NCBI GenBank assembly: GCA_041746175.1
Contig: JBGTHJ010000042.1
Span: 404 to 24,403, forward strand
Length of the DNA stretch: 24,000 bases
Origin: Pyrinomonadaceae bacterium
GTDB lineage: Bacteria; Acidobacteriota; Blastocatellia; Pyrinomonadales; Pyrinomonadaceae
Direction: 5' to 3'
The position numbers were made by a program, and so were the translations under genes. This document shows, piece by piece, positions 7,312 through 22,172 of the stretch. Under the pieces are notes generated by a model, which saw nothing but the letters and a program-made list of their open reading frames with translations, was not told the DNA's origin and made no database searches. Every line of letters starts with the position of its first letter. The stretch's first letter is position 1.

Positions 7312-9702
7312 TCACGGACCAAAGCGTCCCTGATACTCGCTGGAATTGATGAAGGCTTTGACCATCTCGGCGTTGACAAAATTGCCGTTGAACTCGTTGA
7401 GTTTGCCGAGCCAGAAGTTGAACCCGCCGAAGTCGGCGTCGGGCGCATCGTTCGGATTGCGACGCAAGTAACCAAAGTATTGCATCAGGACGAACGCGCG
7501 GTTGAACTCGTTCTGCGTAAACTCGGCGTCCTGCGCCACGCCGCGCAACACTTGCGCACGCGTCAACTGCCCCGCGCCGAGCCGGTTCACAAGGTCGTTT
7601 CTCTCCGCCGGAGACAACGCGCCGCCCGTGTTGACGTTCAGGGCGTCAACGAACTGCGCGGGCGTGAGCGCCGACGGATAGGCGGCGGTGAACTGGGGTC
7701 GCGCGACGAACTGGTCGATGTAGGTCTGCGTGTTGGCTTCGAGAATCTGCTCCGAGCCGGGCGCGCCGATCACGACGCCGCGCCCAATCTGCTGCGTGTC
7801 GGGCACAAACTCGCGCAACGTGACGGGGACGATGCCCGCGACGCGACGCCCGAACGACGCCTGATAGACACGGTAAACGAAATAACCCGTCTGCTGGAAC
7901 TCTATCGAAAGAAAGAAGGCCGCGCTGGTGTTGATCTGTCGAATCTCACGACACGCCTGCGCAGTGCATTCGTCAATCTGATTTTTCCAGAAACCGAGTC
8001 CGGCGGCATCGGCGTCGCGGTTGAGAAAGTCGATGTAGGTGCGCCTGACGAAGAAGTCGGAATCGAAACTTCCCTCTTTGATCGGGTTCGGCCCGTCGAT
8101 CGGGTCGTTGCTGTCAATCTCGACGGTTGCCGCCGACGGCGTGCCGAGCGTCGCGCCGGTCGCGTTCGTCAATGTGACGTTGAAGTTTTCCACCGGCTCC
8201 AAAAAACTGTCGTCGGTGATGAAGATGGTAAAACTCTTCGAGGTCTCGCCGGGGGCGAAAGAAACAGAGCCGAAGGCCGCGTTGTAGTCGGAGCGGTCGG
8301 AGGCCGAGCCGTTCGAGGTTTCGTACGAAACTGTGGTCGAGCCGCTGCCGCTCGACCGCGTGAGGTTGATACTGACGGTGCGTGTGGTTTCGGAAGTGCG
8401 GAAAGATTGCTGGCTGAATTGCACGGTCGGCGGCGGGGTGGTCGCTACCGCGAGACAACCGCCGAATGCGTTGACGTAATTCGTAATCTGATCGCGCGAA
8501 AACTGGCAGAGGCTCAGGTTGGAGAATGTCGCGTCGGAATTCATGATCGAAGTGCCGCACTCGGGTCGCGGCGTGGCTTCCCGGTCGGGGTGCGACGCAC
8601 CGAGATTGTGCCCCATCTCGTGCGCCGGGATGATGAACTTCGCGGGCACCGAAGAGAACATTTGCGAGACGCCGTACGAGGCGGGCGCGCTCGGATTCCG
8701 ACACACGACGCCGTCGTTGGCGATTCCTTCGCGGCCCCCGAAAGCGAAGCCCGGACCGTCAAGCGATTTACCCGTCCACATGTGTACGAGGTCGCGCGCG
8801 GGCGCGCCCGCCGGGGGGGCGGCATTGTAATTCGTGCGGAGTTCGGTCAGCAATGCAACCACGCCTGTCGCGCTGTACGGGTCGTTCGGCGTCTCCCAAA
8901 CGCGCTGGAAGACAACCCTGAACGTCAGCCCCAGTTCGCTCTGATAAACGCCGTCGATCATGTTGATGATGCTGAGGATTTCGCTATTGGCGACGTTCGC
9001 GTTGCTGCTGAAAGCCTGAAAGAACTCAAAGTCGGCTTCGGTAATCAGTTCGATTTCACGCGCGGGCGAGAACGGCGCGGCGGCATCCGTGAGGCGTGCG
9101 GGCATCGACGAACCGAAGCGCGCGGCTTCCGACTCGAACCGCGCCGCCACCGTCGATTCGCAACTTCCAGTGGCGGCGGGCAACACGTCCGTCGCTCTGT
9201 AAAAGACGAAATCATCGGCGGCAGTAGCGACGCTCGCGTAGCGCGCGGCGGGTTCCACGAAATACCTCTCGCCACCCCTGACGATCAATCCCTCGACCTT
9301 CTCGCCGTCGATAGTAAAGCGCGCCACAGATTCCTCGACGCCTTCGACATATCCCTTGAAGGTGCGCACTGTGTCGCGTTCCAGAACCGTCACGCGGCCA
9401 CCGTCGTCAACGCTCACGGCGCGATGGCTGTCGGCGCGCAGGTCGTGCGGCGCGAGGACGATTTCGAGCGTCTCGGTGGAAGTGTGGAGCGCGAGCCGTC
9501 CGGTCTGTCGCACCTGTTGCACGGCGTTCGCCGGGTCGAGTTTGAACGTCTCATGACGTTGCAAGACGCGATGGATATCCGGCTTCATGCTCGCGCTCTG
9601 CGACCGGCCAGCGACCGGCGGCGAGAAGCGCAACGGGACGATAATCACTGCGCTGAAACACAGCGCGAAAAAAACATAGCGGTAGATTTTGATGGATTCC
9701 AT
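7312..9702 (-). CDS. Secreted reprolysin/adamalysin-like zinc metalloprotease (metzincin) with Calx-beta domain and DUF4214-like C-terminal module
   Basis: Signal peptide MESIKIYRYVFFALCFSAVIIVPL. Propeptide-like region of about 200 aa. HEMGHNLGASH (HExxHxxGxxH) at 8590-8622, with a downstream Met-turn candidate GTSIMNS. Calx-beta-like block DRSDYNAAFGSVSFAPGETSKSFTIFITDD. DUF4214-like FVRRTYIDFLNRDADAAGLGFWKNQI and terminal MVKAFINSSEYQGRFGP. GGAG 6 nt upstream of the ATG. Confidence 0.85.
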   Translation of the reverse strand: MESIKIYRYVFFALCFSAVIIVPLRFSPPVAGRSQSASMKPDIHRVLQRHETFKLDPANAVQQVRQTGRLALHTSTETLEIVLAPHDLRADSHRAVSVDDGGRVTVLERDTVRTFKGYVEGVEESVARFTIDGEKVEGLIVRGGERYFVEPAARYASVATAADDFVFYRATDVLPAATGSCESTVAARFESEAARFGSSMPARLTDAAAPFSPAREIELITEADFEFFQAFSSNANVANSEILSIINMIDGVYQSELGLTFRVVFQRVWETPNDPYSATGVVALLTELRTNYNAAPPAGAPARDLVHMWTGKSLDGPGFAFGGREGIANDGVVCRNPSAPASYGVSQMFSSVPAKFIIPAHEMGHNLGASHPDREATPRPECGTSIMNSDATFSNLSLCQFSRDQITNYVNAFGGCLAVATTPPPTVQFSQQSFRTSETTRTVSINLTRSSGSGSTTVSYETSNGSASDRSDYNAAFGSVSFAPGETSKSFTIFITDDSFLEPVENFNVTLTNATGATLGTPSAATVEIDSNDPIDGPNPIKEGSFDSDFFVRRTYIDFLNRDADAAGLGFWKNQIDECTAQACREIRQINTSAAFFLSIEFQQTGYFVYRVYQASFGRRVAGIVPVTLREFVPDTQQIGRGVVIGAPGSEQILEANTQTYIDQFVARPQFTAAYPSALTPAQFVDALNVNTGGALSPAERNDLVNRLGAGQLTRAQVLRGVAQDAEFTQNEFNRAFVLMQYFGYLRRNPNDAPDADFGGFNFWLGKLNEFNGNFVNAEMVKAFINSSEYQGRFGP

Positions 9703-10000
9703 CGGTAACTCCTTGACCAGAAGTCGGCGAAACGAAGTGACGGACTAGACTTTCACTCACCGTGACAGTGGTGACTGACCGGATAAAAATACCAAGCACG
9801 TTTTGAGAAATTACGACTGAAAGGTGACAAACGTATTGAGGGGCGATAGCACGTCCGTCATCAAAAACGTCTGACGACGCAGGCGGCAAACGGCGCGAGA
9901 ACTCCATCGTGCAGGATTATTCACGGCGTCATCGTGAGGAAGCCCCTCCCCCTTGCTCGCGGTTTTGACCGCGCCGGGGCGACGCAGCGGGACACCTTCT

Positions 10001-10030
10001 AATCTATTTGTTGGGAACAGCCGTTGTCAA
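10001..10030 (-). promoter_or_regulatory. Candidate sigma-70-type promoter for the metalloprotease gene
   Basis: On the minus strand, TTGACA (10030-10025), an 18-nt spacer, then TAGATT (10006-10001). It sits just downstream of the preceding gene's stop (10068). Pattern match only; it would imply a leader of roughly 290 nt. Confidence 0.3.
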
Positions 10031-10067
10031 CATCGACGCGGTTAAATTTCGCTTGCGGCCAACGCAT

Positions 10068-11765
10068 TCACGGCCCGAACCGCTGGCGGTATTCGCTGGA
10101 GTTGATGAAAGCCTTGACCATCTCGGCTTCGACGAAATTGCCGCCGAACTGATCGAGTTTAGCGAGCCAGAAATTGTAGCCGTCGAGGTTGTTGTCGGGG
10201 GCATCGTCGGGGTTGCGGCGGAGGTAGCCAACGTATTGCATTAGGACGAATGCACGGTTGAACTCCTGACGATTGAAGTCCGCGTCTTCGGCGACGACGC
10301 GGAGAACCTCCGCGCGGGACAGTCGCTCGCTGCGGAGCCGCGTGGCGAGGTCGTCGCGTTCGGACGGCGAAAGCGCGCCGCCGGTGTTGGCGTTCAGCGC
10401 ATCGACGAACTGCTCCGGCGTCATCGTTTGCGGATAGCGCGCGACGAATTGCGGACGCATGACGAACTCGCCCGCGAAGGCACGCTTGTTCGACTCCAAC
10501 AGTTGCTCCCAACCGGGGGCGTTGACGACGACGCCGCGCCCGATTTCCTGCGTGTCGGAGAGAAAGTCGCGCAGACGGAGCCGCACGCCGGTATCGAAGG
10601 CCGCCTGATGAAAGCGATAGACGAGATAGCCGGTCTGCTGAAATTCGATCGAGAGGAAGAAGGCTGCCGAGACGTTGACGCGCCGCAGTTCGATGCACGC
10701 CGCATCCGCGCCGCACGCTGCAATCTGGTTCGTCCAGAAGTTAAGCCCGGCGGCATCGGGTTCGCGGTTGAGAAAATCGATGTAGTTCTGGCGGACGAAA
10801 AACGGCGAAGCGTCGATCGGGTTCGCATTGGCGGGCGACGCATCGTTATCGCTGATGCGGAGCACGGCGGCGTTCGGCGCGGCAAGCGTCGCGCCCGTCG
10901 GGTTGGTGAGTTGGAGGTTGAAGGTCTCCGTGCCTTCGACGTGCGCGTCGTCGGTGATGAATACGGAGAAAGTTTTGGTCGTCTCGCCCGCCGCGAAGCG
11001 GAGCGTGCCGAGCGCGGCGGTATAGTCGGAACGGTCGTTGGCGGTGGCGTCGGCGGTCGAGTAGTTGACCGTCGCGGGGACTGAAGAGCCGCTGGTGAGC
11101 GTGACCGTGATGGTCGCGCTGCCCGAAGCCTCCGGCGCATCGTAGCTCGATGCACTGAAGGCGAGCGTTGGCGGTGCGGGCGCGTCGGGGGTGGTGGTGG
11201 CGAAGGTGAAATAGATGTTATCGCCGGACGTGTTGCCGTCGTTGTTGGCCTGATTGCCAGCCGTGTAGAAGGTGACGGGGCCGACGTTGGTCGCCGGGGC
11301 TAGCCAACGAAATGTCCAACTCGCGCCGCCCTGCTGTCCGGTGTACGTGCCATCGAAAGTGTGTTCGATGTACTGGCGCGACGGAAAAGGCCCTTGACCG
11401 TCGAGCGTCTGCGTCGTCGGGTCGAGACTTTCGAGCGTGCCGGCGCGTTCGTTGTTGTCGCCCAACGCGGTCAGTTGAAATCCCCAACGCCGCCGCGTCT
11501 GATCGGTGTTGGTGTGCGCGACCGTGATTTGATACGTCTGCCCCGGCACGTAGCTCGGCGGCACGGTGATGCTTATCCGTCCCGTGCCCGGACTCTCGAT
11601 GAGATGGCACTCGGCGCAATCGAACTCGCCGGGGGCTTTGGTGAACCCCGCGTCCGGTCCCGTCGAGCGCGCGTGTGCCGTGCGGTTGGCGGCGTTGTCG
11701 GTGAACAACGTCGCGACGCCCACGACGACAAAAAACATGATGACGAGGAGTTTGAGCTTAAGCAT
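10068..11765 (-). CDS. Secreted protein: N-terminal CxxCH-containing beta-rich domain, Calx-beta domain and DUF4214-like C-terminal module (paralogous tail to 7312-9702)
   Basis: Signal peptide MLKLKLLVIMFFVVVGVATLF. CAECH motif at 11604-11618. Calx-beta-like DRSDYTAALGTLRFAAGETTKTFSVFITDD. DUF4214-like FVRQNYIDFLNREPDAAGLNFWTNQI and terminal MVKAFINSSEYRQRFGP. The tail of about 366 aa is collinear with the tail of the metalloprotease. Confidence 0.8.
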   Translation of the reverse strand: MLKLKLLVIMFFVVVGVATLFTDNAANRTAHARSTGPDAGFTKAPGEFDCAECHLIESPGTGRISITVPPSYVPGQTYQITVAHTNTDQTRRRWGFQLTALGDNNERAGTLESLDPTTQTLDGQGPFPSRQYIEHTFDGTYTGQQGGASWTFRWLAPATNVGPVTFYTAGNQANNDGNTSGDNIYFTFATTTPDAPAPPTLAFSASSYDAPEASGSATITVTLTSGSSVPATVNYSTADATANDRSDYTAALGTLRFAAGETTKTFSVFITDDAHVEGTETFNLQLTNPTGATLAAPNAAVLRISDNDASPANANPIDASPFFVRQNYIDFLNREPDAAGLNFWTNQIAACGADAACIELRRVNVSAAFFLSIEFQQTGYLVYRFHQAAFDTGVRLRLRDFLSDTQEIGRGVVVNAPGWEQLLESNKRAFAGEFVMRPQFVARYPQTMTPEQFVDALNANTGGALSPSERDDLATRLRSERLSRAEVLRVVAEDADFNRQEFNRAFVLMQYVGYLRRNPDDAPDNNLDGYNFWLAKLDQFGGNFVEAEMVKAFINSSEYRQRFGP

Positions 11766-11852
11766 GAATTCGCTCGCCGCCCGCCCGGCTCACAAACTCG
11801 ATGAAGACCTCCGTCAACGAGTCGGTGCGCCGGTGCGCCGATGAAGCATTCC

Positions 11853-13262
11853 CTACATGAGAAAGCCGATGTTCGGGTTGTTGAATCGCCCGATGAGCGG
11901 GAAGACGAGGGGGATGTCGCTGTTTGAAAGGCCGTACCATGCGGCGAGCGTGGCGGCATACTGTTCGATGGAGAGCGTCGGTATCCAACGCCCGCGCGAA
12001 TCGGCGTCGTCGGGGCCGTTCAGCGCGAGCGTCGGGAACGTGCCGTAGAAGTCGCCGCCGCGCACCGCGCCGCCCATCACCAGATGATGATTGCCCCATG
12101 CGTGATCCGAGCCGACGCCCGCACCCGACCCGGCGGGTTGCAGCGTGCGTCCGAAATCCGAGAGCGTGAAGGTCGTGACATCGTTCTGCACGCCGAGTTC
12201 GATGGTCGCATCGTAGAACGCACGCATCGCCTGACTGACCTGTGTGAGCAAAGCGTCCTGCGTGTTGCCGACCGCGCCGCGCTGGTTGCTGTGGGTGTCG
12301 AAGCCGCCGAGCGACACGAAAAAGATTTGACGTTTGACGCCGAGCGTGTCGCGCAACTTAATCAGACGGGCGACCTGCTCCAATTGGTAGCCGAGCGACG
12401 TATCGGGAAAGGCGGTGGCGAGCGTCGCATTAGCCGAGGCGAGCGCCTGACTCGCGTCGAGCGCGGAAGCGGTCGTGTCGCTCGAAGCCCTGACCAGCGT
12501 CGCCCCGAAGTCCAAGTCGCGCAAGGCGTCGAACGCCGTCCGGCGCGCGGTATTCTGCGCGGTCGAAAAGCCGCCCGAACCCGGCGGATTGTTGAGCGGC
12601 AGCACCTGTGACAACGACGTGCGCGAGTCGTTGATGGCGAGCGGTCGCGACGCCCCACCGACGACGAATGTGCTGACCCCCGCGATCGAGATCAGTTGTG
12701 GAAACGATGCCGTGCCGTTGAGCATCGCGGCGCGGTCGGCGACGCGCCCGCCCCATCCCGTCTGGCTGACAACTTCGGACGATGTGGTTTGCCACTGGTT
12801 GACCTGATCCGAATGCGAGAAGAGTTGATAAGGACGCCGCCCCGTGCCGTTGCGGTAAGTGGTTCGCGTCAGCGGCTCGACCAGCGGCCCGACGTTGCAC
12901 ACCACCGCCAACTTCTGTTGACTGAACAGTGTTTGCATCTCCGGCATACTCGGATGCACCCCGAACGGGCGACCGCTCAGAGGCGTGACGGGCAACAGGC
13001 TCGCCTGTGTGACGGCGAGACCCGCCGTGCCGCGCACGCTGTTGTACTGGCTGTATTCAGCGTCGAGCGGAACGATGAGGTTGTTGCCGTCGTTGCCGCC
13101 GTTGAGAAAGATGCAGACGAGAGCTTTGTAATCGGTCGCGGCGGCCTGCTGCGCCGCCAGCGCACCCACTAAACTAAAACTCTCGATGCCCGCCGCCAGC
13201 GCCGTCCCGCCGAGGATGGCGCATCCCGTCTGCCGTAAGAAATCTCTGCGTGTTGATGACAT
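11853..13262 (-). CDS. Tat-exported DUF1501 family protein (sulfatase/alkaline-phosphatase-like superfamily)
   Basis: Twin-arginine signal MSSTRRDFLRQTGCAILGGTALAAG. DUF1501 blocks FSHSDQVNQWQT, GGFDTHSNQ and GVGSDHAWGNHHLVMGGAVRGGDFYG. The ATG at 13262 lies 4 nt after the DUF1800 stop. The track start at 13373 would overlap the upstream gene. Confidence 0.9.
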   Translation of the reverse strand: MSSTRRDFLRQTGCAILGGTALAAGIESFSLVGALAAQQAAATDYKALVCIFLNGGNDGNNLIVPLDAEYSQYNSVRGTAGLAVTQASLLPVTPLSGRPFGVHPSMPEMQTLFSQQKLAVVCNVGPLVEPLTRTTYRNGTGRRPYQLFSHSDQVNQWQTTSSEVVSQTGWGGRVADRAAMLNGTASFPQLISIAGVSTFVVGGASRPLAINDSRTSLSQVLPLNNPPGSGGFSTAQNTARRTAFDALRDLDFGATLVRASSDTTASALDASQALASANATLATAFPDTSLGYQLEQVARLIKLRDTLGVKRQIFFVSLGGFDTHSNQRGAVGNTQDALLTQVSQAMRAFYDATIELGVQNDVTTFTLSDFGRTLQPAGSGAGVGSDHAWGNHHLVMGGAVRGGDFYGTFPTLALNGPDDADSRGRWIPTLSIEQYAATLAAWYGLSNSDIPLVFPLIGRFNNPNIGFLM

Positions 13263-13266
13263 GGCT

Positions 13267-15465
13267 TTATCTCTGAACCTGATACTGCGACGACGAGGCG
13301 ACGAGGTACGCCGCCATTTGTGTGCGCTTGCGCGGGTGCGCCGCGTCGGTTGTGGGGACGCTTGAGACGGCATTGATGATCGCCGCGCGCATCTCCGGCG
13401 ACATCGTGTTGTGGAGCAAGAGCGCGTCGAGATATGCGACCAACTGCGCGGGGTCGCCCGCGAGCGCTTCGAGCGGCGCGAGGTCGAGCGCAGTGCCGTT
13501 GGGCGCGGTGCCGTTGACGGTGTCTGCCGAGCGCGCGACGCCGGTGTAGATGATCGTGTTGACGAAGTTGATGCGGCGCAGCGCGGTCGAGGTCGTCAGA
13601 ATCCCGAAGGTCGGGCCGGAGAGTTTGACGCCGGGTATTTCGTAATCCGCCGGGTAATAGTTGAAGACGGTGGCCGGTCGGAAGATGTCCTGTTCGAGCA
13701 GCGCCGCGTTTGGCGCGAGGTAGCCGTCGCTGTTCGTCGTCCTATCGAACGACTTGGCGTCGAAGGCGCGCAGGATGTTGTTGATGAGCTGCGCAGGCTC
13801 GCGCAGCCGTCCGTAATTGGAAGCGGTTTTGATGTCGCCACGCGCTTCCGGGTCGAGCAGAACGGCGCGCACGGTGGCTTTCATGTCGCCGCGTTCGCCC
13901 GTGCACGGATTATCCGGATAGAGTCCGGCGCAGTTGTTGTCGAAAGCTGCGGCGACGCGCCCGACGTAGGCCGCGCTCGGGTTGCTCGTCACCAGATGTT
14001 GAATCAGTTGCTTCGCGATAAACGGCCCGGTGTTCGGGTGGTTGAAGATATTGTCGAGCGCGACGTTCAGATCGGTCTGCGCGTTTTGTCCGGCGGTCGT
14101 CACCACGCCGTTCAAGAGCGTCTTCGCCCCCGTGTCGTGACTGTTGCCCGTGCGCGGAACCATCGGGTCGCGATAATTGGTGATGCCCTGACCGAGCGAG
14201 ACCGTGCGGTTGATATCCCAGCCGGTGAAGACGCGCGTGAAACTATTGACCGTATCCTGATTGTAAGACGGGATGCGTCGCCCCTGCGCGTCGAGTTTCG
14301 GCGTGCCGTCGGGGTTGAGTTCATCGACGCCGATGGAGAAGAGTTGGAGAATCTCGCGCGCGAAGTTTTCGTTTGGCGAGGTCGCCGTACTCCGTCGCAT
14401 GTCGAGATACTCGCCCATCGCCGGGCTGAGCGTGATTTCCTGAAGCAGTTGACGGAAGTTTCCGAAGGCGTTGCGGTCGAGCAGTTGTAGATACGGAGTC
14501 ATCCAACTCGGTCGCGAGATGTCGCGTCCCGAAACGACCATGATCTGATGGAGCGCAAAGGCCACGCGCTGCCGGAGTTGATCAGACTGCGCGCTCTTGT
14601 TGATCGCGTTCTGGAAGAAACGCAACTGCACCGGGTACATCGAATAGTTGTTACGAACACACGTCGGCGCGCTCCCGGTCGGGCAACCCGCATTCTGGTC
14701 GTCGAGCGGGAACGGCAAATCAGGATAACCAGACAACGGCGCGTTGAACTGCTCGTTCAAGTAAGCCCTAAAACCGATTGACTGCACGCGCGCGACTTCC
14801 GAAGGAGTCGGTCCCCACGACGCCTGTTCGAGAAAGCGCACGGTGTCGGCGTAAGTGCCCACACCCGTGTAAGGGTTGGGCGTCGGCGTCGGGATGACTG
14901 CGGGCGGTGTGGGCGGTGCCGGCGTCGGAATCGAACCGGCATCGTCGGGCGGGCCGCCACCCGTGCGCCCGACCGCGATACGCACGCGGTTGCTCGCTAC
15001 GCCGTGCAGGTTGATACGCACCAGCACGTCGCCGAGCGTGTCATCCATGTCGTCGCTCAGGCGCAGCACGACCTGATAGAGCCACGCTTGCCCCGGCACG
15101 CTGCCCACATATTCGACCGCGAGCGGGTAGCGTTGCTTCAGCGCGTCTTCAGCGTCCGCGCTCAGCGCATTCGCGCCTTCGCCCGCGAAGAAATTGAGAT
15201 TCAACGCAAAGAGCGTGACGCGCGTGCGCGTGTCCGCGCTCCACGCGAGGGGTGAGACGAGCGGAAACGGCTCGCTTTTGAACGTCACCGAGTCGAAGGC
15301 GACGGCGCGCGTCGTCCGACCGGTTCCTTCGCTCAGCAGGACGGGCGCACCGGGCACGCTCTGCGCGTAGGCCACGGGACTGCTGAACGCGCCGCTCAAT
15401 AACACGAGGCAGACACCCCACACCCCCGCAAGGGAGGCAGTCCGACGGCATGGCTTTTTAGACAT
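13267..15465 (-). CDS. Exported DUF1800 family protein with an additional N-terminal beta-domain and Pro/Thr linker
   Basis: Signal peptide ...VCLVLLSGAFSSPVAYAQ. DUF1800-like blocks RFLEQASWGPTPSEV and NENFAREILQLFSIGVDELNPDG...YNQDTVNSFTRVFTGW. Forms the classic DUF1800-DUF1501 gene pair with the next gene. Confidence 0.88.
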   Translation of the reverse strand: MSKKPCRRTASLAGVWGVCLVLLSGAFSSPVAYAQSVPGAPVLLSEGTGRTTRAVAFDSVTFKSEPFPLVSPLAWSADTRTRVTLFALNLNFFAGEGANALSADAEDALKQRYPLAVEYVGSVPGQAWLYQVVLRLSDDMDDTLGDVLVRINLHGVASNRVRIAVGRTGGGPPDDAGSIPTPAPPTPPAVIPTPTPNPYTGVGTYADTVRFLEQASWGPTPSEVARVQSIGFRAYLNEQFNAPLSGYPDLPFPLDDQNAGCPTGSAPTCVRNNYSMYPVQLRFFQNAINKSAQSDQLRQRVAFALHQIMVVSGRDISRPSWMTPYLQLLDRNAFGNFRQLLQEITLSPAMGEYLDMRRSTATSPNENFAREILQLFSIGVDELNPDGTPKLDAQGRRIPSYNQDTVNSFTRVFTGWDINRTVSLGQGITNYRDPMVPRTGNSHDTGAKTLLNGVVTTAGQNAQTDLNVALDNIFNHPNTGPFIAKQLIQHLVTSNPSAAYVGRVAAAFDNNCAGLYPDNPCTGERGDMKATVRAVLLDPEARGDIKTASNYGRLREPAQLINNILRAFDAKSFDRTTNSDGYLAPNAALLEQDIFRPATVFNYYPADYEIPGVKLSGPTFGILTTSTALRRINFVNTIIYTGVARSADTVNGTAPNGTALDLAPLEALAGDPAQLVAYLDALLLHNTMSPEMRAAIINAVSSVPTTDAAHPRKRTQMAAYLVASSSQYQVQR

Positions 15466-16933: not shown

Positions 16934-17236
16934 ATTCTATCCCCCTTATGATAATCCGTTTTCCGAACACCGTAGCGGCGAACTGTGTCGTCGCCTGTCC
17001 GAAAACAGCTCGTTAGTGATGTTGTTATTGAATATAGACTCAATAACCGTGCCGACGGTCTGGAGACGAGAAGGATGAACAGCAGACAAAGCAGTCGGAG
17101 TATCGATACCTTGACGCTCGCACAAGTCGCGGGTCGATAAGGACGCATAAGAACTACGAGGAAATATTTATCAGCGGCGTGATTAAAGATTGGCTGACGG
17201 AAAAATTAGAGGATGAGGAAGTTTTGTTTTGATAAA

Positions 17237-17314
<78 letters not shown>

Positions 17315-17360
17315 CGCAAATCAAACAACGAACGCATTCTATGTGCGCCGCACCCACATG

Positions 17361-18038
17361 TCAAACCTGCACGTCTCCGGCACGCTGACGAGCACGCGCT
17401 TTCTCGCGTCGCGCTTTCAAAAATTCGTACAGCGGAGGCATCAGCGACAACGCGACGACCACGATCACGACCTTCTCGATGTGCTCGTCGAGTTTGATGC
17501 CGAACGCGCTTTCGACGATGCTGCCGAGGAAGTAGCCCGACAAAATCATGCTGAAGACCCAGAGGAATCCGCCCACGATGTTGAAGACGACGAACTGACG
17601 GTAAGGCATTTGCGCCGCCCCCGCGACGATCGGCGCAAACGTCCGCACGATGGGGACGAAGCGCGCGATGATGATGGTCTTGCCGCCGTATTTATCGTAA
17701 AACGCCTGTGCCTTTTCCAGATGACTCGGACGAAACAGTATCGACTTTTGCCGTGTGAACAGACGCGGCCCCAGTTTCGCTCCTGACAAGTAGCCGACCG
17801 CGTCGCCCACCACCGCCGCGACAAACAACGTGCTCAAGAGTATGAAGACGTTCAGATCGCCCTTGGCCGCAAACAACCCCGCGACGACGAGCAGCGAGTC
17901 TCCCGGCAGGAAGAAACCCATCGCCAACCCCGTCTCCGCAAAGACCACCGCGATTAGTACCAGATAGCCCGCCGCCGCAATCGTTCGCGGGTCGAGATAG
18001 CTTTTGATCTGATGCAAGATTTCTAAAATTGATTCCAT
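17361..18038 (-). CDS. dedA: DedA family inner-membrane protein
   Basis: DedA signature VFAETGLAMGFFLPGDSLLVVAGLFAAKGDLN and GGKTIIIARFVPIVRTFAPIVAGAAQMPYRQF. Multiple TM segments. 225 aa. Confidence 0.9.
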   Translation of the reverse strand: MESILEILHQIKSYLDPRTIAAAGYLVLIAVVFAETGLAMGFFLPGDSLLVVAGLFAAKGDLNVFILLSTLFVAAVVGDAVGYLSGAKLGPRLFTRQKSILFRPSHLEKAQAFYDKYGGKTIIIARFVPIVRTFAPIVAGAAQMPYRQFVVFNIVGGFLWVFSMILSGYFLGSIVESAFGIKLDEHIEKVVIVVVALSLMPPLYEFLKARREKARARQRAGDVQV

Positions 18039-19827: not shown

Positions 19828-21867
19828 CTATGCGTCGAGCGCGGTTTCCTTGTTGCGACTCAAACCTTTGATCTGCACCGGCGTGTTCTTCTCGACATCG
19901 CCGCCCAGTTTCTTCTTCAAGACCATCTCCTGATAAAGCTTGCGCATCATCGCCGCCTCTTCCGCAGCCGTCTTCGGACCGGCCATTTCGGGACGGTTCG
20001 GACGCGCGAGGTCGGTATCGTTCAGATTGAGACTGACCGGCGCGGCGAAAGCCATTTCGACATCCTTGCCCTTGGCAAATATTTCGTGACGGCCATTCTC
20101 TTTGTACCACTTGGCGACGGTCGCATTCTGGTGCATCTGTTCGATGATGTTACGCCAGCCGATGCCGGTGTTGTAAGCGCAGAAGGAGATCTCACCCTCC
20201 TGTGTGCCGTAGGGGATGATGCACATTTCCGTGCGGCGAAAGTCGTAGTTGAAGAGGTCTTGGAACCACATGCCCGCGATGAAGAGGAAGTTCCAACGGT
20301 CTGAGCGACGCTTCTTGATGTCCTGTTCCGTGCGGTCGCCCTCGACCTTGCCGTACGACTTGCCGGTCAAACCGAACGACTTGTCGAACTTCTTGAACAA
20401 CTCCCACAGCGTGAACTGCGACGGCGAGTTGTACGGGTTGTAATGCTTCAGAAGCGTCAGTCCCATCATCAAGTTCGACGACCACTTGCCGCGTCCCGCA
20501 TCCGTAATCTTCTGCATGTCTTTGACGAGTCCCGGAATGTTCAAAAACTCCGGCACGGGTCGCATCTCTTTCGTTTCCTTGTCGATCATCACCGCCGTGC
20601 CGACGCCGCAATTCGGGTGGCAGCCGCAGGAGACCTGTCCCCACTCGGCATCGGGACCGTGCGCGAGGTCGGCGAAATCGGCGAACGCGCCCATCAGCGA
20701 GAGCGGGAACCAATCGCGCGTCGGCTCGGTGATGCCGACTTGCGACTTCACGTCGTTCGCCAGATGCGACAGGGTGTAGCGCTGCGCCATGCGGCGCTCG
20801 TCGGTAATCTCTTCGTCGCGTCCGGTGAACGAGACGGGCTGGAACGAGATGAACGCGATCTTCTTCGGATTCTCAAGCGCGAAGCGAATCACCGAACCGA
20901 CCTGATCGTTGTTGATGTTGTTGACCAGCGTCGTGACGAGCACGATTTCGACGCCCGCTTCATGCAGATTGTCGATGGCGCGCAGCTTCACGTCGAACAG
21001 GTTGCCGACCTGTCGGTGGCTGTTGGCATCGTTGCCGATGCCGTCGAACTGAAGATAAGCGTAACGCAGACCGGCTTCCGCCGACTCGCGGCAGAACTCT
21101 TTGCTCTTGGCGAACTCGATGCCGTTTGTGGCGCACTGGACGGAGTTGTAACCGACCTTGCGCGAATAGCGAATCGAGTCGAGGAAGTACGGCGAGATGG
21201 TCGGCTCGCCGCCGGAGAACTGCACCGACATCTGGCGACGCGGCTTGATCGAGATGGCCTTGTCGAGGATGTCTGTGATCTCTTCGTAGCTCAACTCGTG
21301 GACGAAGCCGACCTGATTGGCATCCATAAAGCACGGGTCGCACATCATGTTGCAACGATTGGTCAGGTCGATCGTCAAGACCGAACCGCGCCCGTACTTG
21401 ATCGTGCTCGAACCGTGATTGTGCAGTTTCTCATCGTTGTGCGCCTGGATGTCGCGACCGGGAAACATCGACTCGATGTGCTTCAAAAATGTCGAGTCGA
21501 TCGCCATGATGTCTTCAAAGTGGCCGTGCACGGGGCAATCTTTAATCATCCAGACTTCGCCGTCGCGCTCGATGATGGTCGCCTTGATTTCGCCGACCTT
21601 CTCGTTGATCAAAATCGACGGGTCGATCACCTCCGCGCTCAAAATCTTCTGGCGGGCTTCGATCACGCACTTCGGGCACAGCGAATCGGTCGTGCGGGGA
21701 AAGCCGAGCGGCGGCTTCGACTTCTGATAAGACTTGAGCATCGGCTTGTCAGACCACTTCGGCGTAAACGCTTCGTTGGGTCGATACTTGTTGAAAAACT
21801 GGATCGTATTGAATACGCCGCCCGCGAAGGCGGTCAAACCTCGCTCCACATGCTTGATGGGTTTCAT
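19828..21867 (-). CDS. Large multi-cluster radical SAM enzyme, probable MJ0619 / Tes / GDGT-MAS-like family
   Basis: CxxxCxxC as CNMMCDPC (21331-21354). N-terminal Cys knuckles TDSLCPKC ... KDCPVHGH. Later SCGCHPNCG and MCIIPYGTQEGEISFCAYNTG. Motif strings ISFQPVSFTGR and MWFQDLFNYDFRR. Start chosen at MKPIKHVERG (21867), with GAAGGA 7 nt upstream. Radical SAM membership is secure; the subfamily assignment is from memory of motif blocks. Confidence 0.85.
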   Translation of the reverse strand: MKPIKHVERGLTAFAGGVFNTIQFFNKYRPNEAFTPKWSDKPMLKSYQKSKPPLGFPRTTDSLCPKCVIEARQKILSAEVIDPSILINEKVGEIKATIIERDGEVWMIKDCPVHGHFEDIMAIDSTFLKHIESMFPGRDIQAHNDEKLHNHGSSTIKYGRGSVLTIDLTNRCNMMCDPCFMDANQVGFVHELSYEEITDILDKAISIKPRRQMSVQFSGGEPTISPYFLDSIRYSRKVGYNSVQCATNGIEFAKSKEFCRESAEAGLRYAYLQFDGIGNDANSHRQVGNLFDVKLRAIDNLHEAGVEIVLVTTLVNNINNDQVGSVIRFALENPKKIAFISFQPVSFTGRDEEITDERRMAQRYTLSHLANDVKSQVGITEPTRDWFPLSLMGAFADFADLAHGPDAEWGQVSCGCHPNCGVGTAVMIDKETKEMRPVPEFLNIPGLVKDMQKITDAGRGKWSSNLMMGLTLLKHYNPYNSPSQFTLWELFKKFDKSFGLTGKSYGKVEGDRTEQDIKKRRSDRWNFLFIAGMWFQDLFNYDFRRTEMCIIPYGTQEGEISFCAYNTGIGWRNIIEQMHQNATVAKWYKENGRHEIFAKGKDVEMAFAAPVSLNLNDTDLARPNRPEMAGPKTAAEEAAMMRKLYQEMVLKKKLGGDVEKNTPVQIKGLSRNKETALDA

Positions 21868-22172
21868 TCTTGTTCCTTCTCTACTTTTAAAATTGCCCGG
21901 GCACGAACAGCCGCCCGTGATGATGGGTTGGCTAAATAAAATTTTGGCCGTGTAATTCAACTGCAATGACCATGCCATCCCACCCGTAAATATCTAAACG
22001 GATAAATATAACGACTTAGCTCAAACACACGACCAGCGCACAGTTTCCAAAATAAAGCCTGGCGGGTCAAATGAGCTCGACTCACAGGCATCCCGTCCTC
22101 GCGTAGCCTTTTGACTCGGAAGCTATCATAAGCCCCGGCATGTGTGGCGGTTTTGACACCCGGCCAGAAAAT

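What the first reader, a model, noticed from the sequence alone, without database searches (positions are those of the whole stretch)
19828..21867. Tes / GDGT-MAS-like radical SAM enzyme: candidate membrane-spanning-lipid synthase in a bacterium
Seen in the sequence:
- a 679-aa protein with the radical SAM CNMMCDPC triad
- an N-terminal rubredoxin-like pair of knuckles (TDSLCPKC ... KDCPVHGH)
- a second Cys cluster, SCGCHPNCG
- a C-terminal MCIIPYG...ISFCAYNTG block
- the conserved-looking strings ISFQPVSFTGR and MWFQDLFNYDFRR

From memory, this order of blocks is the hallmark of the MJ0619 family. That family was first annotated as a pterin methyltransferase. It was later shown to be the archaeal tetraether/macrocyclic archaeol synthase (Tes, GDGT-MAS), which couples two lipid tails through an sp3 C-C bond.

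The rest of the window looks Acidobacteria-like. Bacterial homologues have been proposed, but not settled, as the enzymes that make iso-diabolic-acid or brGDGT-type membrane-spanning lipids.

This copy also carries a C-terminal extension of about 110 aa (IGWRNIIEQMH... to the end) and an N-terminal leader of about 60 aa with no motif I recognise. It sits alone between its own AT-richer upstream region and surE-pcm-dedA.
Basis: partly seen in the sequence, partly recalled or inferred. Interest (0 to 1): 0.75.

Follow-up and report, generated by a model that had tools for sequence, protein, structure and literature searches.

The report
Divergent bacterial tetraether-synthase-like lipid enzyme
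This soil acidobacterium (family Pyrinomonadaceae) carries an intact, strongly conserved relative of the archaeal enzyme that joins two lipid tails into one membrane-spanning lipid; it belongs to a distinct bacterial branch lacking one of the archaeal enzyme's iron-sulfur clusters, and is the best available but untested candidate for making the iso-diabolic-acid lipids behind a widely used palaeoclimate proxy.

Summary
It is a true full-length homologue of GDGT-MAS/Tes (PDB 7TOL E=1.3e-60; AlphaFold model vs 7TOM/7TOL TM 0.82-0.83).

It is not a canonical Tes. It scores 314 bits against NCBIfam's Tes model (cut-off 450). It lacks the N-terminal auxiliary [4Fe-4S] motif. It has a conserved N-terminal leader, an insertion in the rubredoxin domain and a conserved C-terminal extension.

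These traits define a monophyletic branch, which I call Type A. It is 66-92% identical across Acidobacteriota subdivisions 1, 3, 4 and 6, the ones reported to make iso-diabolic acid. It also occurs in Gemmatimonadota and Eremiobacterota MAGs.

All catalytic residues are kept in 76/76 orthologues that cover those positions: the radical SAM cluster, the 5'-dA loop, the C-terminal cluster Cys, Met439 and Tyr459 equivalents. One Acidobacteriaceae contig carries Type A and a canonical Tes 2.2 kb apart.

[quoted passage not shown] The papers available to me report no experimental test of bacterial Tes homologues. Bacterial Tes homologues are already in the literature; the split into two types appears unreported.

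The parts
19828..21867 (-). Complete CDS, 679 aa plus stop: Type A Tes/GDGT-MAS-family radical SAM protein
   Evidence: ORF. Start supported by homologue lengths and an upstream RBS-like site. Pfam, 7TOL E=1.3e-60, model vs 7TOM/7TOL TM(target) 0.82-0.83.
21874..21879 (-). Shine-Dalgarno-like GAAGGA, 6 nt before the ATG at 21867
   Evidence: Sequence read.
21784..21861 (-). Residues 3-28: predicted long amphipathic N-terminal helix, a possible in-plane membrane anchor (inferred)
   Evidence: AlphaFold helix 3-28 with pLDDT 85-91. Hydrophobic moment 0.49, maximum 0.70; no transmembrane segment anywhere in the protein.
21688..21783 (-). Residues 29-60: Type A-specific conserved leader (…FTPKWSDKPLLKSYQK.KPPLG.PR.TDS)
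   Evidence: Nearly invariant between subdivision 4 and subdivision 1 orthologues; partly absent from Type B.
21505..21702 (-). Residues 56-121: rubredoxin-like zinc-ribbon domain, C64-x2-C67 … C111-x2-H114, with a ~23-residue Type A insertion between the knuckles
   Evidence: PF23545 2e-13. GDGT-MAS uses C9X2C12X20C33X2H36 (PMC9433317). Ligands kept in 76/76 orthologues that cover these positions.
21379..21462 (-). Residues 136-163: loop in place of the N-terminal auxiliary [4Fe-4S] motif. No Cys; H143, D145, H149, H151, S154, R160 invariant.
   Evidence: Aligns to MJ0619 'ngCpydCglCpnH'. Motif table. 70/70 invariance. pLDDT 35-38.
20878..21366 (-). Residues 168-330: radical SAM core, with C172-x3-C176-x2-C179 at 21331-21354
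   Evidence: PF04055 4e-18; alignment to 7TOL.
20818..20844 (-). Residues 342-350, FQPVSFTGR: equivalent of the GDGT-MAS loop Q268/S271/R275 that closes over 5'-deoxyadenosine
   Evidence: Alignment, counted against PMC9433317 Extended Data. Q343, P344, V345, F347, T348, G349 and R350 are invariant over Type A and Type B.
20167..20724 (-). Residues 382-567: C-terminal auxiliary-cluster and lipid-pocket domain. Contains C414, C416, H417, C420, M533 (=Met439), C549, Y553 (=Tyr459), C563.
   Evidence: Alignments. Pattern identical in 76/76 orthologues that cover these positions. Fold match spans this domain.
20059..20163 (-). Residues 569-603: conserved Type A C-terminal extension (IGWRNIIE.MH..AT..KWY.E.GRHEIF), two short helices
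   Evidence: Near-invariant across classes. Helices 571-578 and 582-591. Only the first ~10 residues have a Type B counterpart.
19828..20058 (-). Residues 604-679 plus stop: variable, probably disordered tail with one semi-conserved helix (634-648, AAEEAAMMRKLYQEM)
   Evidence: Low conservation; pLDDT 28-49 apart from the helix.

Best explanation
The gene encodes a lipid-tail-coupling radical SAM enzyme of the Tes/GDGT-MAS family. It belongs to a distinct bacterial branch, here called Type A.

Proposed mechanism, by analogy with GDGT-MAS (inferred, not shown):
1. The enzyme sits peripherally on the cytoplasmic face of the membrane, possibly through its amphipathic N-terminal helix.
2. The radical SAM [4Fe-4S] cluster (C172/C176/C179) cleaves SAM to a 5'-deoxyadenosyl radical.
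3. That radical abstracts a hydrogen from the terminal methyl of an iso-branched C15 (or C17) chain of an intact glycerophospholipid.
4. The carbon radical is parked as a C-S adduct on the C-terminal auxiliary cluster (C416/C420/C549/C563, with M533 as the labile ligand).
5. A second SAM activates the tail of a second lipid, and the two carbons join.
6. [quoted passage not shown]

Unlike archaeal Tes, the enzyme has no surface N-terminal [4Fe-4S] cluster. I read this as an adaptation of the electron-entry side of the enzyme to aerobic hosts.
For: Shown:
- Full-length homology to GDGT-MAS: phmmer E=1.3e-60 over residues 93-567; BLASTP 32% identity, 2e-66. The AlphaFold model (pTM 0.80) matches 7TOM/7TOL at E 2e-33 and TM(target) 0.82-0.83; the next hit, MoaA, is at 1e-7.
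- Every residue PMC9433317 ties to chemistry is kept: the CX3CX2C motif, the Q268/S271/R275 loop (FQPVSFTGR), three C-cluster Cys, Met439 and Tyr459. The pattern is identical in 76/76 orthologues that cover these positions, from several phyla.
- Strong purifying selection: 66-72% identity between Acidobacteriota classes and across phyla.
- Distribution: Type A is in Pyrinomonadaceae/Blastocatellia (SD4), Acidobacteriaceae including the isolate Acidipila rosea (SD1), Bryobacteraceae/Solibacteraceae (SD3) and Vicinamibacterales (SD6). These are the subdivisions reported to make iso-diabolic acid (PMC13274423, PMC13159169).
- In Pyrinomonas, membrane-spanning and ether lipids make up to 40% or more of membrane lipid, and the strain is obligately aerobic (PMC4644332).

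From the literature:
- No mss homologues were found in the acidobacterial genomes examined (PMC13159169).
- The iso-C15 terminus is structurally identical to a phytanyl terminus (PMC8941075).
- GDGT-MAS binds ester-linked bacterial phospholipids in its pocket (PMC9433317).
Against: - There is no experimental test of any bacterial Tes homologue in the papers I could read (PMC11868695; PMC13459092). Chen et al. 2025 (GCA) could not be read and, as summarised in PMC13023045, appears correlative.
- A distant 'Tes homolog' of Thermoanaerobacter ethanolicus (24% identity) produced no membrane-spanning lipid in E. coli (preprint 10.1101/2022.04.21.487849).
- The protein fails NCBIfam's Tes equivalog threshold and lacks one of the four metallocofactors.
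- Canonical Type B Tes also occurs in Acidobacteria, once next to Type A on the same contig. The two may therefore do different jobs, and Type B could be the coupling enzyme where both exist.
- PMC13159169 found Tes homologues in only 3 of 14 iso-diabolic-acid-producing acidobacteria at their thresholds. I could not establish whether Type A was simply missed (31-32% identity is at the usual 30% cut-off).
- No lipid gene is a conserved neighbour.
Confidence: 0.55

Rival explanations
1. The chemistry is the same (radical C-C coupling at an inert lipid terminus), but the substrate or product differs from iso-diabolic acid. Examples: intramolecular macrocyclisation; coupling only of ether-linked chains; or acting on another isopropyl-terminated lipid. 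Where both paralogues exist, canonical Type B Tes would make the bulk membrane-spanning lipid.
For: GDGT-MAS itself makes both macrocyclic archaeol and GDGT (PMC9433317). Type A and Type B are both retained 2.2 kb apart on one contig and share only 34% identity, which suggests non-redundant roles. The published brGDGT and tetraester producers Solibacter and Koribacter carry homologues 40-42% identical to archaeal Tes. That is the Type B range measured here (PMC8941075).
Against: No named Type B hit came from Blastocatellia or Pyrinomonadaceae, though few hits carry names. By my inference from the 3-of-14 result in PMC13159169, subdivision 4 strains lack Type B. Yet they make large amounts of iso-diabolic acid (PMC4644332). 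Something other than Type B or Mss must make it there.
Confidence: 0.2
2. It is a Tes-family paralogue that has moved to different radical chemistry on a hydrophobic substrate. Possibilities include sulfur insertion from the auxiliary cluster, desaturation or hydroxylation, and not C-C coupling.
For: It falls below the equivalog threshold. It has lost one cluster and gained an invariant His/Asp loop plus new N- and C-terminal elements. Related branches have diverged further: the Terriglobus roseus paralogue P0133 lost all C-cluster Cys. Enzymes that form C-S bonds on auxiliary clusters also carry non-standard cluster ligands (PMC9433317).
Against: Met439 and Tyr459, reported as completely conserved in 1000 archaeal GDGT-MAS homologues (PMC9433317), are both kept in every orthologue, together with the C-cluster Cys. 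Such retention is hard to explain if the coupling mechanism had been abandoned.
Confidence: 0.15
3. It is a 7,8-dihydro-6-hydroxymethylpterin dimethyltransferase. This is the older annotation of MJ0619 that some databases still propagate.
For: JGI names several close homologues this way, and the Pfam zinc-ribbon domain keeps the HMPTM name.
Against: Lloyd et al. could not reproduce that activity and showed lipid coupling instead (PMC9433317). From general knowledge, methanopterin-type cofactors are not known in Acidobacteriota. No pterin gene is nearby.
Confidence: 0.02

Closest known systems
GDGT-MAS / Tes (MJ0619, PDB 7TOL/7TOM; Methanosarcina MA_1486; NCBIfam NF045702)
   Same: - Rubredoxin-like CX2C…CX2H domain.
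- Radical SAM CX3CX2C motif.
- FQPVSFTGR 5'-deoxyadenosine loop.
- C-terminal auxiliary-cluster Cys, with the Met439 and Tyr459 equivalents.
- Overall fold (TM 0.82-0.83 normalised to the crystal structure).
   Different: - No N-terminal auxiliary [4Fe-4S] motif; an invariant H/D/H/H loop takes its place.
- About 60-residue conserved leader with an amphipathic helix.
- About 23-residue insertion in the rubredoxin domain.
- Extra Cys414.
- Conserved 35-residue C-terminal extension followed by a variable tail.
- 32% identity; 314 bits against a 450-bit cut-off.
- The host is an aerobic bacterium whose lipids are iso-fatty-acid based.
Canonical ('Type B') bacterial Tes homologues: Bryobacteraceae, Solibacter, Terriglobia. 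The 40-42% identity hits of Koribacter and Solibacter in Zeng et al. 2022 fall in this range.
   Same: Same family. Also found in Acidobacteriota. Both types occur on one Acidobacteriaceae contig (L065).
   Different: Type B keeps the CPxxCGxCxxH cluster motif, is about 545-560 aa, is 42-45% identical to MJ0619, passes the NF045702 cut-off (578 bits), and is named 'tetraether lipid synthase Tes' by NCBI in some MAGs. Type A is a separate monophyletic branch.
Mss, membrane-spanning lipid synthase of Thermotoga maritima and Thermoanaerobacter ethanolicus
   Same: The proposed reaction is the same kind: radical SAM tail-to-tail coupling of fatty acyl chains to diabolic or iso-diabolic acids.
   Different: Mss is the bacterial radical SAM enzyme shown experimentally to make diabolic acids. 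It is active only anaerobically in E. coli and was not found in the acidobacterial genomes examined (PMC13159169).
TrsS radical SAM (seleno)protein (NF045646)
   Same: Second-best NCBIfam model (206 bits), so it is related in sequence to the Tes family.
   Different: Far below its 490-bit cut-off; the best-scoring match covers only residues 93-378.

Membership tests
Tes / GDGT-MAS (NF045702 equivalog) | Radical SAM CX3CX2C cluster motif in a partial TIM barrel | tested here: met
   C172/C176/C179. PF04055 at 4e-18. Aligned to the 7TOL motif.
Tes / GDGT-MAS (NF045702 equivalog) | N-terminal rubredoxin-type iron site, C9X2C12X20C33X2H36 | tested here: met
   C64, C67, C111, H114. PF23545 at 2e-13. 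The spacer is 43 residues instead of 20. Conserved in all orthologues that cover these positions.
Tes / GDGT-MAS (NF045702 equivalog) | N-terminal auxiliary [4Fe-4S] cluster (C73, C77, C80 plus His) | tested here: not met
   The aligned segment is 'AHNDEKLHNHGSST', with no Cys. The motif is present in every Type B sequence compared.
Tes / GDGT-MAS (NF045702 equivalog) | C-terminal auxiliary [4Fe-4S] cluster with labile Met439 and conserved Tyr459 | tested here: met
   C420, C549, C563 (plus C416), M533 and Y553 align. Identical in 76/76 orthologues that cover these positions. Metal binding itself was not tested.
Tes / GDGT-MAS (NF045702 equivalog) | 5'-dA/SAM loop Gln268-Ser271-Arg275 | tested here: met
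   Q343, S346 and R350 in FQPVSFTGR. Q343 and R350 are invariant in alignment A4; S346 is conserved but not on the invariant list.
Tes / GDGT-MAS (NF045702 equivalog) | Overall fold, including the lipid-pocket domain | tested here: met
   Foldseek vs 7TOM/7TOL: E 2e-33, TM(target) 0.82-0.83, 555 aligned columns. Model pLDDT 73, pTM 0.80. Tunnel geometry was not inspected, because no coordinates are returned.
Tes / GDGT-MAS (NF045702 equivalog) | Score at or above the curated equivalog cut-off (450 bits) | tested here: not met
   313.9 bits. Type A orthologues score 320-333; Type B from L065 scores 578.
Tes / GDGT-MAS (NF045702 equivalog) | Catalyses Csp3-Csp3 coupling of two lipid tails | not testable with these tools
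   Needs expression or deletion with lipid mass spectrometry. No published test of a bacterial homologue was found.
Mss (bacterial membrane-spanning lipid synthase) | Sequence homology to the Thermotoga maritima and Thermoanaerobacter ethanolicus Mss enzymes | not tested
   Reference sequences were not obtainable here. PMC13159169 reports no mss homologues in the acidobacterial genomes examined.
   SPASM-family NCBIfam models match only the radical SAM core (about residues 147-373), with scores of 28.9-74.2 bits against cut-offs of 265-650 bits. Pfam finds no B12-binding or SPASM domain.
TrsS (NF045646) | Score at or above the 490-bit cut-off | tested here: not met
   206 bits.

The most novel reading that the evidence does not exclude
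Type A is the long-sought iso-diabolic-acid synthase of aerobic Acidobacteria. It would be a Tes descendant that dropped the surface-exposed N-terminal [4Fe-4S] cluster, replaced it with an invariant His/Asp loop (perhaps a mononuclear metal or partner-docking site), and so works in oxygen-respiring cells.

Its presence would then mark true producers of iso-diabolic-acid and brGDGT-precursor lipids. These would include unsuspected ones in Gemmatimonadota and Eremiobacterota. Canonical Type B Tes, where present, would do a second job such as diether-to-tetraether coupling.
Probability: 0.4. Interest if true: 0.8.

Novelty: new variant of a known kind. Interest (0 to 1): 0.6.

Why it matters
Branched GDGTs are widely used as proxies for past temperature and pH. 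Yet their producers and biosynthetic enzymes are still poorly constrained (PMC13274423). Iso-diabolic acid is the presumed building block and is abundant in aerobic Acidobacteria. No mss homologue, the only experimentally shown bacterial coupling enzyme, was found in the acidobacterial genomes examined (PMC13159169).

Tes homologues in these bacteria fall into two architecturally different types. The type found here spans subdivisions 1, 3, 4 and 6 with all catalytic residues intact. That gives a concrete single-gene target for expression and knockout work. It also gives a sharper genetic marker than 'any Tes hit' for metagenome surveys of brGDGT sources.

Mechanistically, a Tes-family enzyme without the N-terminal cluster tests which cofactors the unusual Csp3-Csp3 coupling really needs.

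Tried and rejected
- **Gene neighbourhood.** I clustered all ORFs from 81 related loci. No lipid gene is conserved next to Type A. surE-pcm-dedA follows it only in about 20 Pyrinomonadaceae loci; Terriglobia loci have a queG-like gene instead. The DedA adjacency is therefore probably incidental.
- **Regulatory RNA and signals.** Rfam over the whole window finds only a tRNA. There is no sigma-70-like promoter and no terminator above the shuffle expectation around the gene.
- **Source of the window.** The exact protein is not on record.
- **Organism names for cluster representatives.** Two cluster-member runs gave few names. The useful result was that P0133 is from Terriglobus roseus.
- **Supplementary tables.** Those listing which acidobacteria had Tes hits are not held for PMC13159169, and those held for PMC8941075 had no matches. 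I could not check the '3 of 14' claim strain by strain.
- **Primary lipid paper for subdivision 4.** PMC4136120 is not held.
- **Absence of Type A from non-producing subdivisions (8, 10, 23).** This could not be tested. The single genome scan returned only the best 80 of at least 596 relatives.
- **Pterin methyltransferase, SPASM maturase and B12 methylase readings.** Rejected on the domain and literature evidence given above.
Full report
**1. Observation**

The minus strand carries an ORF at 19828..21978.
- That start is preceded by GAAGGA with a 6-nt spacer.
- It matches the start and length (671-685 aa) of more than 100 close homologues.
- All nine quoted peptide strings are at the expected residues.
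- Pfam finds Radical_SAM and the HMPTM zinc-ribbon domain.

Downstream lie surE, pcm, a DedA/VTT-domain gene and tRNA-Pro(CGG). Upstream lie an inositol-monophosphatase-family gene and hisIE. The rest of the window is housekeeping: hemE, a protoporphyrinogen-oxidase-like flavoprotein, an ECF sigma/anti-sigma pair, and DUF1800/DUF1501.

**2. Family**

Against all PDB sequences the only strong hit is GDGT-MAS (7TOL/7TOM), at E=1.3e-60 over residues 93-567. The next hits, SkfB and MoaA, are at 1e-5 to 1e-6 and cover only the radical SAM core.

An AlphaFold2 model was built on an 80-sequence alignment (pLDDT 73, pTM 0.80). It matches 7TOM/7TOL with Foldseek E 2e-33 and TM 0.82-0.83 normalised to the crystal structure. 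MoaA follows at 1e-7.

**3. It is not a canonical Tes**

NCBIfam's Tes equivalog model gives 313.9 bits against a 450-bit cut-off. I mapped the residues described for GDGT-MAS (PMC9433317) onto the alignment.

| GDGT-MAS feature | In this protein |
|---|---|
| Rubredoxin site C9/C12/C33/H36 | C64/C67/C111/H114 |
| Radical SAM motif | C172/C176/C179 |
| Labile Met439 | M533 |
| Tyr459 | Y553 |
| C-terminal cluster Cys | C420, C549, C563 |
| N-terminal auxiliary cluster C73-x3-C77-x2-C80…His | None; the aligned segment is AHNDEKLHNHGSS |

**4. Two types of homologue**

An exhaustive profile-free search of 1.84 billion cluster representatives found 567 clusters at E<=1e-30. I aligned full-length representatives and built a neighbour-joining tree with a ligand table. 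They separate into two groups.

- **Type B.** It has CPxxCGxCxxH, is about 500-560 aa, and groups with MJ0619.
- **Type A.** It is monophyletic and includes the window protein. It has no N-terminal cluster motif, a conserved ~60-residue leader, an insertion between the rubredoxin knuckles and a C-terminal extension.

BLASTP against MJ0619 gives 31-32% identity (about 1e-66) for Type A and 42-45% (1e-128 to 1e-152) for Type B. These numbers reproduce those in Zeng et al. 2022: Edaphobacter aggregans at 32% and 4e-61, against Koribacter and Solibacter at 42% and 40%. My inference is that the much-cited top bacterial hits are Type B and the E. aggregans hit is Type A.

Type B exists in Acidobacteria too (Bryobacteraceae, Solibacter, Sulfopaludibacter, Terriglobia). 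NCBI names some of these MAG proteins 'tetraether lipid synthase Tes'. Type A is named only 'radical SAM protein'.

On one Acidobacteriaceae contig (L065) a Type A gene and a Type B gene lie 2.2 kb apart. They score 320 and 578 bits against the Tes model and share 34% identity. They are distinct paralogues kept side by side.

**5. Distribution and constraint**

A scan of one genome per GTDB species found at least 596 relatives. The best 80 are full length and 66-92% identical. They come from:
- Pyrinomonadaceae, Blastocatellia and 'Chloracidobacterium' MAGs (subdivision 4);
- Acidobacteriaceae, including the isolate Acidipila rosea DSM 103428 (subdivision 1);
- Bryobacteraceae, Solibacteraceae and Sulfopaludibacter (subdivision 3);
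- Vicinamibacterales (subdivision 6) and Acidiferrales;
- five Gemmatimonadota MAGs, two Eremiobacterota MAGs and one Eisenbacteria MAG.

The tree is largely congruent with these groups. In 76 of 76 orthologues that cover these positions, all 18 tracked residues are identical.

Between subdivisions 4 and 1, several segments are almost invariant: leader residues 29-60, NEKVGEIKA, the AHNDEKLHNHG loop and extension residues 569-603. Residues 604-679 are variable and predicted disordered, apart from one helix. Residues 3-28 form a confidently predicted amphipathic helix. No transmembrane segment exists.

**6. Function**

Literature background:
- Iso-diabolic acid occurs in acidobacterial subdivisions 1, 3, 4 and 6 (PMC13274423, PMC13159169).
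- In Pyrinomonas, membrane-spanning and ether lipids make up to 40% or more of membrane lipid, and the strain is an obligate aerobe (PMC4644332).
- No mss homologue was detected in the acidobacterial genomes examined (PMC13159169).
- The iso-C15 terminus mimics the phytanyl terminus (PMC8941075).
- GDGT-MAS accommodates ester phospholipids (PMC9433317).

Together with section 5, this makes Type A the most economical candidate for the tail-to-tail coupling step in aerobic Acidobacteria. The mechanism given under 'best explanation' is transferred from GDGT-MAS and is inferred.

Loss of the surface N-terminal cluster in a lineage of aerobes is suggestive of oxygen adaptation, but this is speculation. 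The invariant H143/D145/H149/H151 loop that replaces it is unexplained.

**7. Caveats**

- No bacterial Tes homologue has been tested in any paper I could read. The one reported attempt used a 24%-identical Thermoanaerobacter protein and was negative.
- Sahonero-Canavesi et al. found Tes hits in only 3 of 14 producers at stringent thresholds. Type A sits at the 30% identity line, so it may have been missed, but I could not verify this.
- Type B may be the coupling enzyme where both types occur.
- The neighbourhood gives no functional support.
- I could not test absence from non-producers.

**8. Novelty and verdict**

Bacterial Tes homologues, and the hypothesis that they make brGDGT-type lipids, are published.

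I did not find the following described: a separate, cluster-deficient, N- and C-terminally extended Type A branch that spans all the iso-diabolic-acid-producing subdivisions and coexists with canonical Tes. I rate this a new variant of a known kind, with interest 0.6. It is not a surprise to specialists, but it turns an open question into a sharply testable one.

Noticed in passing
L065:7995-10100 (+) and L065:12331-14013 (+): One Acidobacteriaceae MAG contig (814 kb) carries a Type A gene (701 aa) and a canonical Type B Tes (560 aa, with the N-terminal cluster motif, 578 bits vs the 450 cut-off). They lie 2.2 kb apart on the same strand, separated by PPK2 and OmpA-family genes.
   Followed up: yes
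P0133 (Terriglobus roseus DSM 18391, WP_014786616.1); L084:6001-7875: A Type A-derived paralogue has lost all three C-terminal cluster Cys and Tyr459 but keeps the radical SAM motif. It sits inside a conjugative or integrative element (TrwC relaxase, TraG/TrwB coupling protein, two integrases). Related representatives P0143 and P0180 show a different Cys arrangement (CRSCA).
   Followed up: partly
window 21379-21462 (-), residues 136-163: The loop that replaces the N-terminal [4Fe-4S] motif is invariant at H143, D145, H149, H151, G152, S154, G159, R160 and G161 in 70/70 full-length orthologues, yet is modelled with pLDDT 35-38. It may be a new metal or partner-binding site. Unexplained.
   Followed up: partly
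L048, L049, L051, L058, L061 (Gemmatimonadota); L064, L079 (Eremiobacterota); L063 (Eisenbacteria): Full-length Type A orthologues about 70% identical to the window protein, with all ligands intact, occur in MAGs of phyla that, as far as I know, have not been reported to make iso-diabolic acid. The four Gemmatimonadota sequences included in the tree (L048, L049, L051, L058) form their own clade. Single hits labelled Clostridia (L037) and Acidimicrobiia (L047) may be binning errors.
   Followed up: partly
P0139 and P0152: Some Type A-like cluster representatives are degenerate. P0139 lacks the CX3CX2C motif altogether. P0152 lacks the C-terminal Cys block. P0136 looks frameshifted.
   Followed up: no
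window 17237-17313 (-): tRNA-Pro (anticodon CGG) lies just downstream of the DedA/VTT-domain gene. The listed ORF 17229-17786 (+) overlapping it is spurious.
   Followed up: yes
window 7312-15465 (-); L001:15470-19044: A DUF1800/DUF1501 gene pair, preceded in the window by two large Calx-beta/DUF4214 proteins (one with an M12B metalloprotease domain), lies downstream of the surE-pcm-dedA block. The DUF1800/DUF1501 pair is syntenic in L001 and L017.
   Followed up: no
L082:1976-3716: In one Terriglobia-type genome the Type A gene lies about 2.3 kb downstream of NifU-like and HesB/IscA-like Fe-S assembly genes. This is not conserved elsewhere.
   Followed up: no
L001:5043-8591: In the 5.5-Mb Pyrinomonadaceae contig, the region upstream of the Type A gene holds methylmalonyl-CoA-mutase-family, B12-binding and enoyl-CoA hydratase genes. 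These could relate to branched-chain acyl-CoA metabolism. They are seen in only 4 loci.
   Followed up: no
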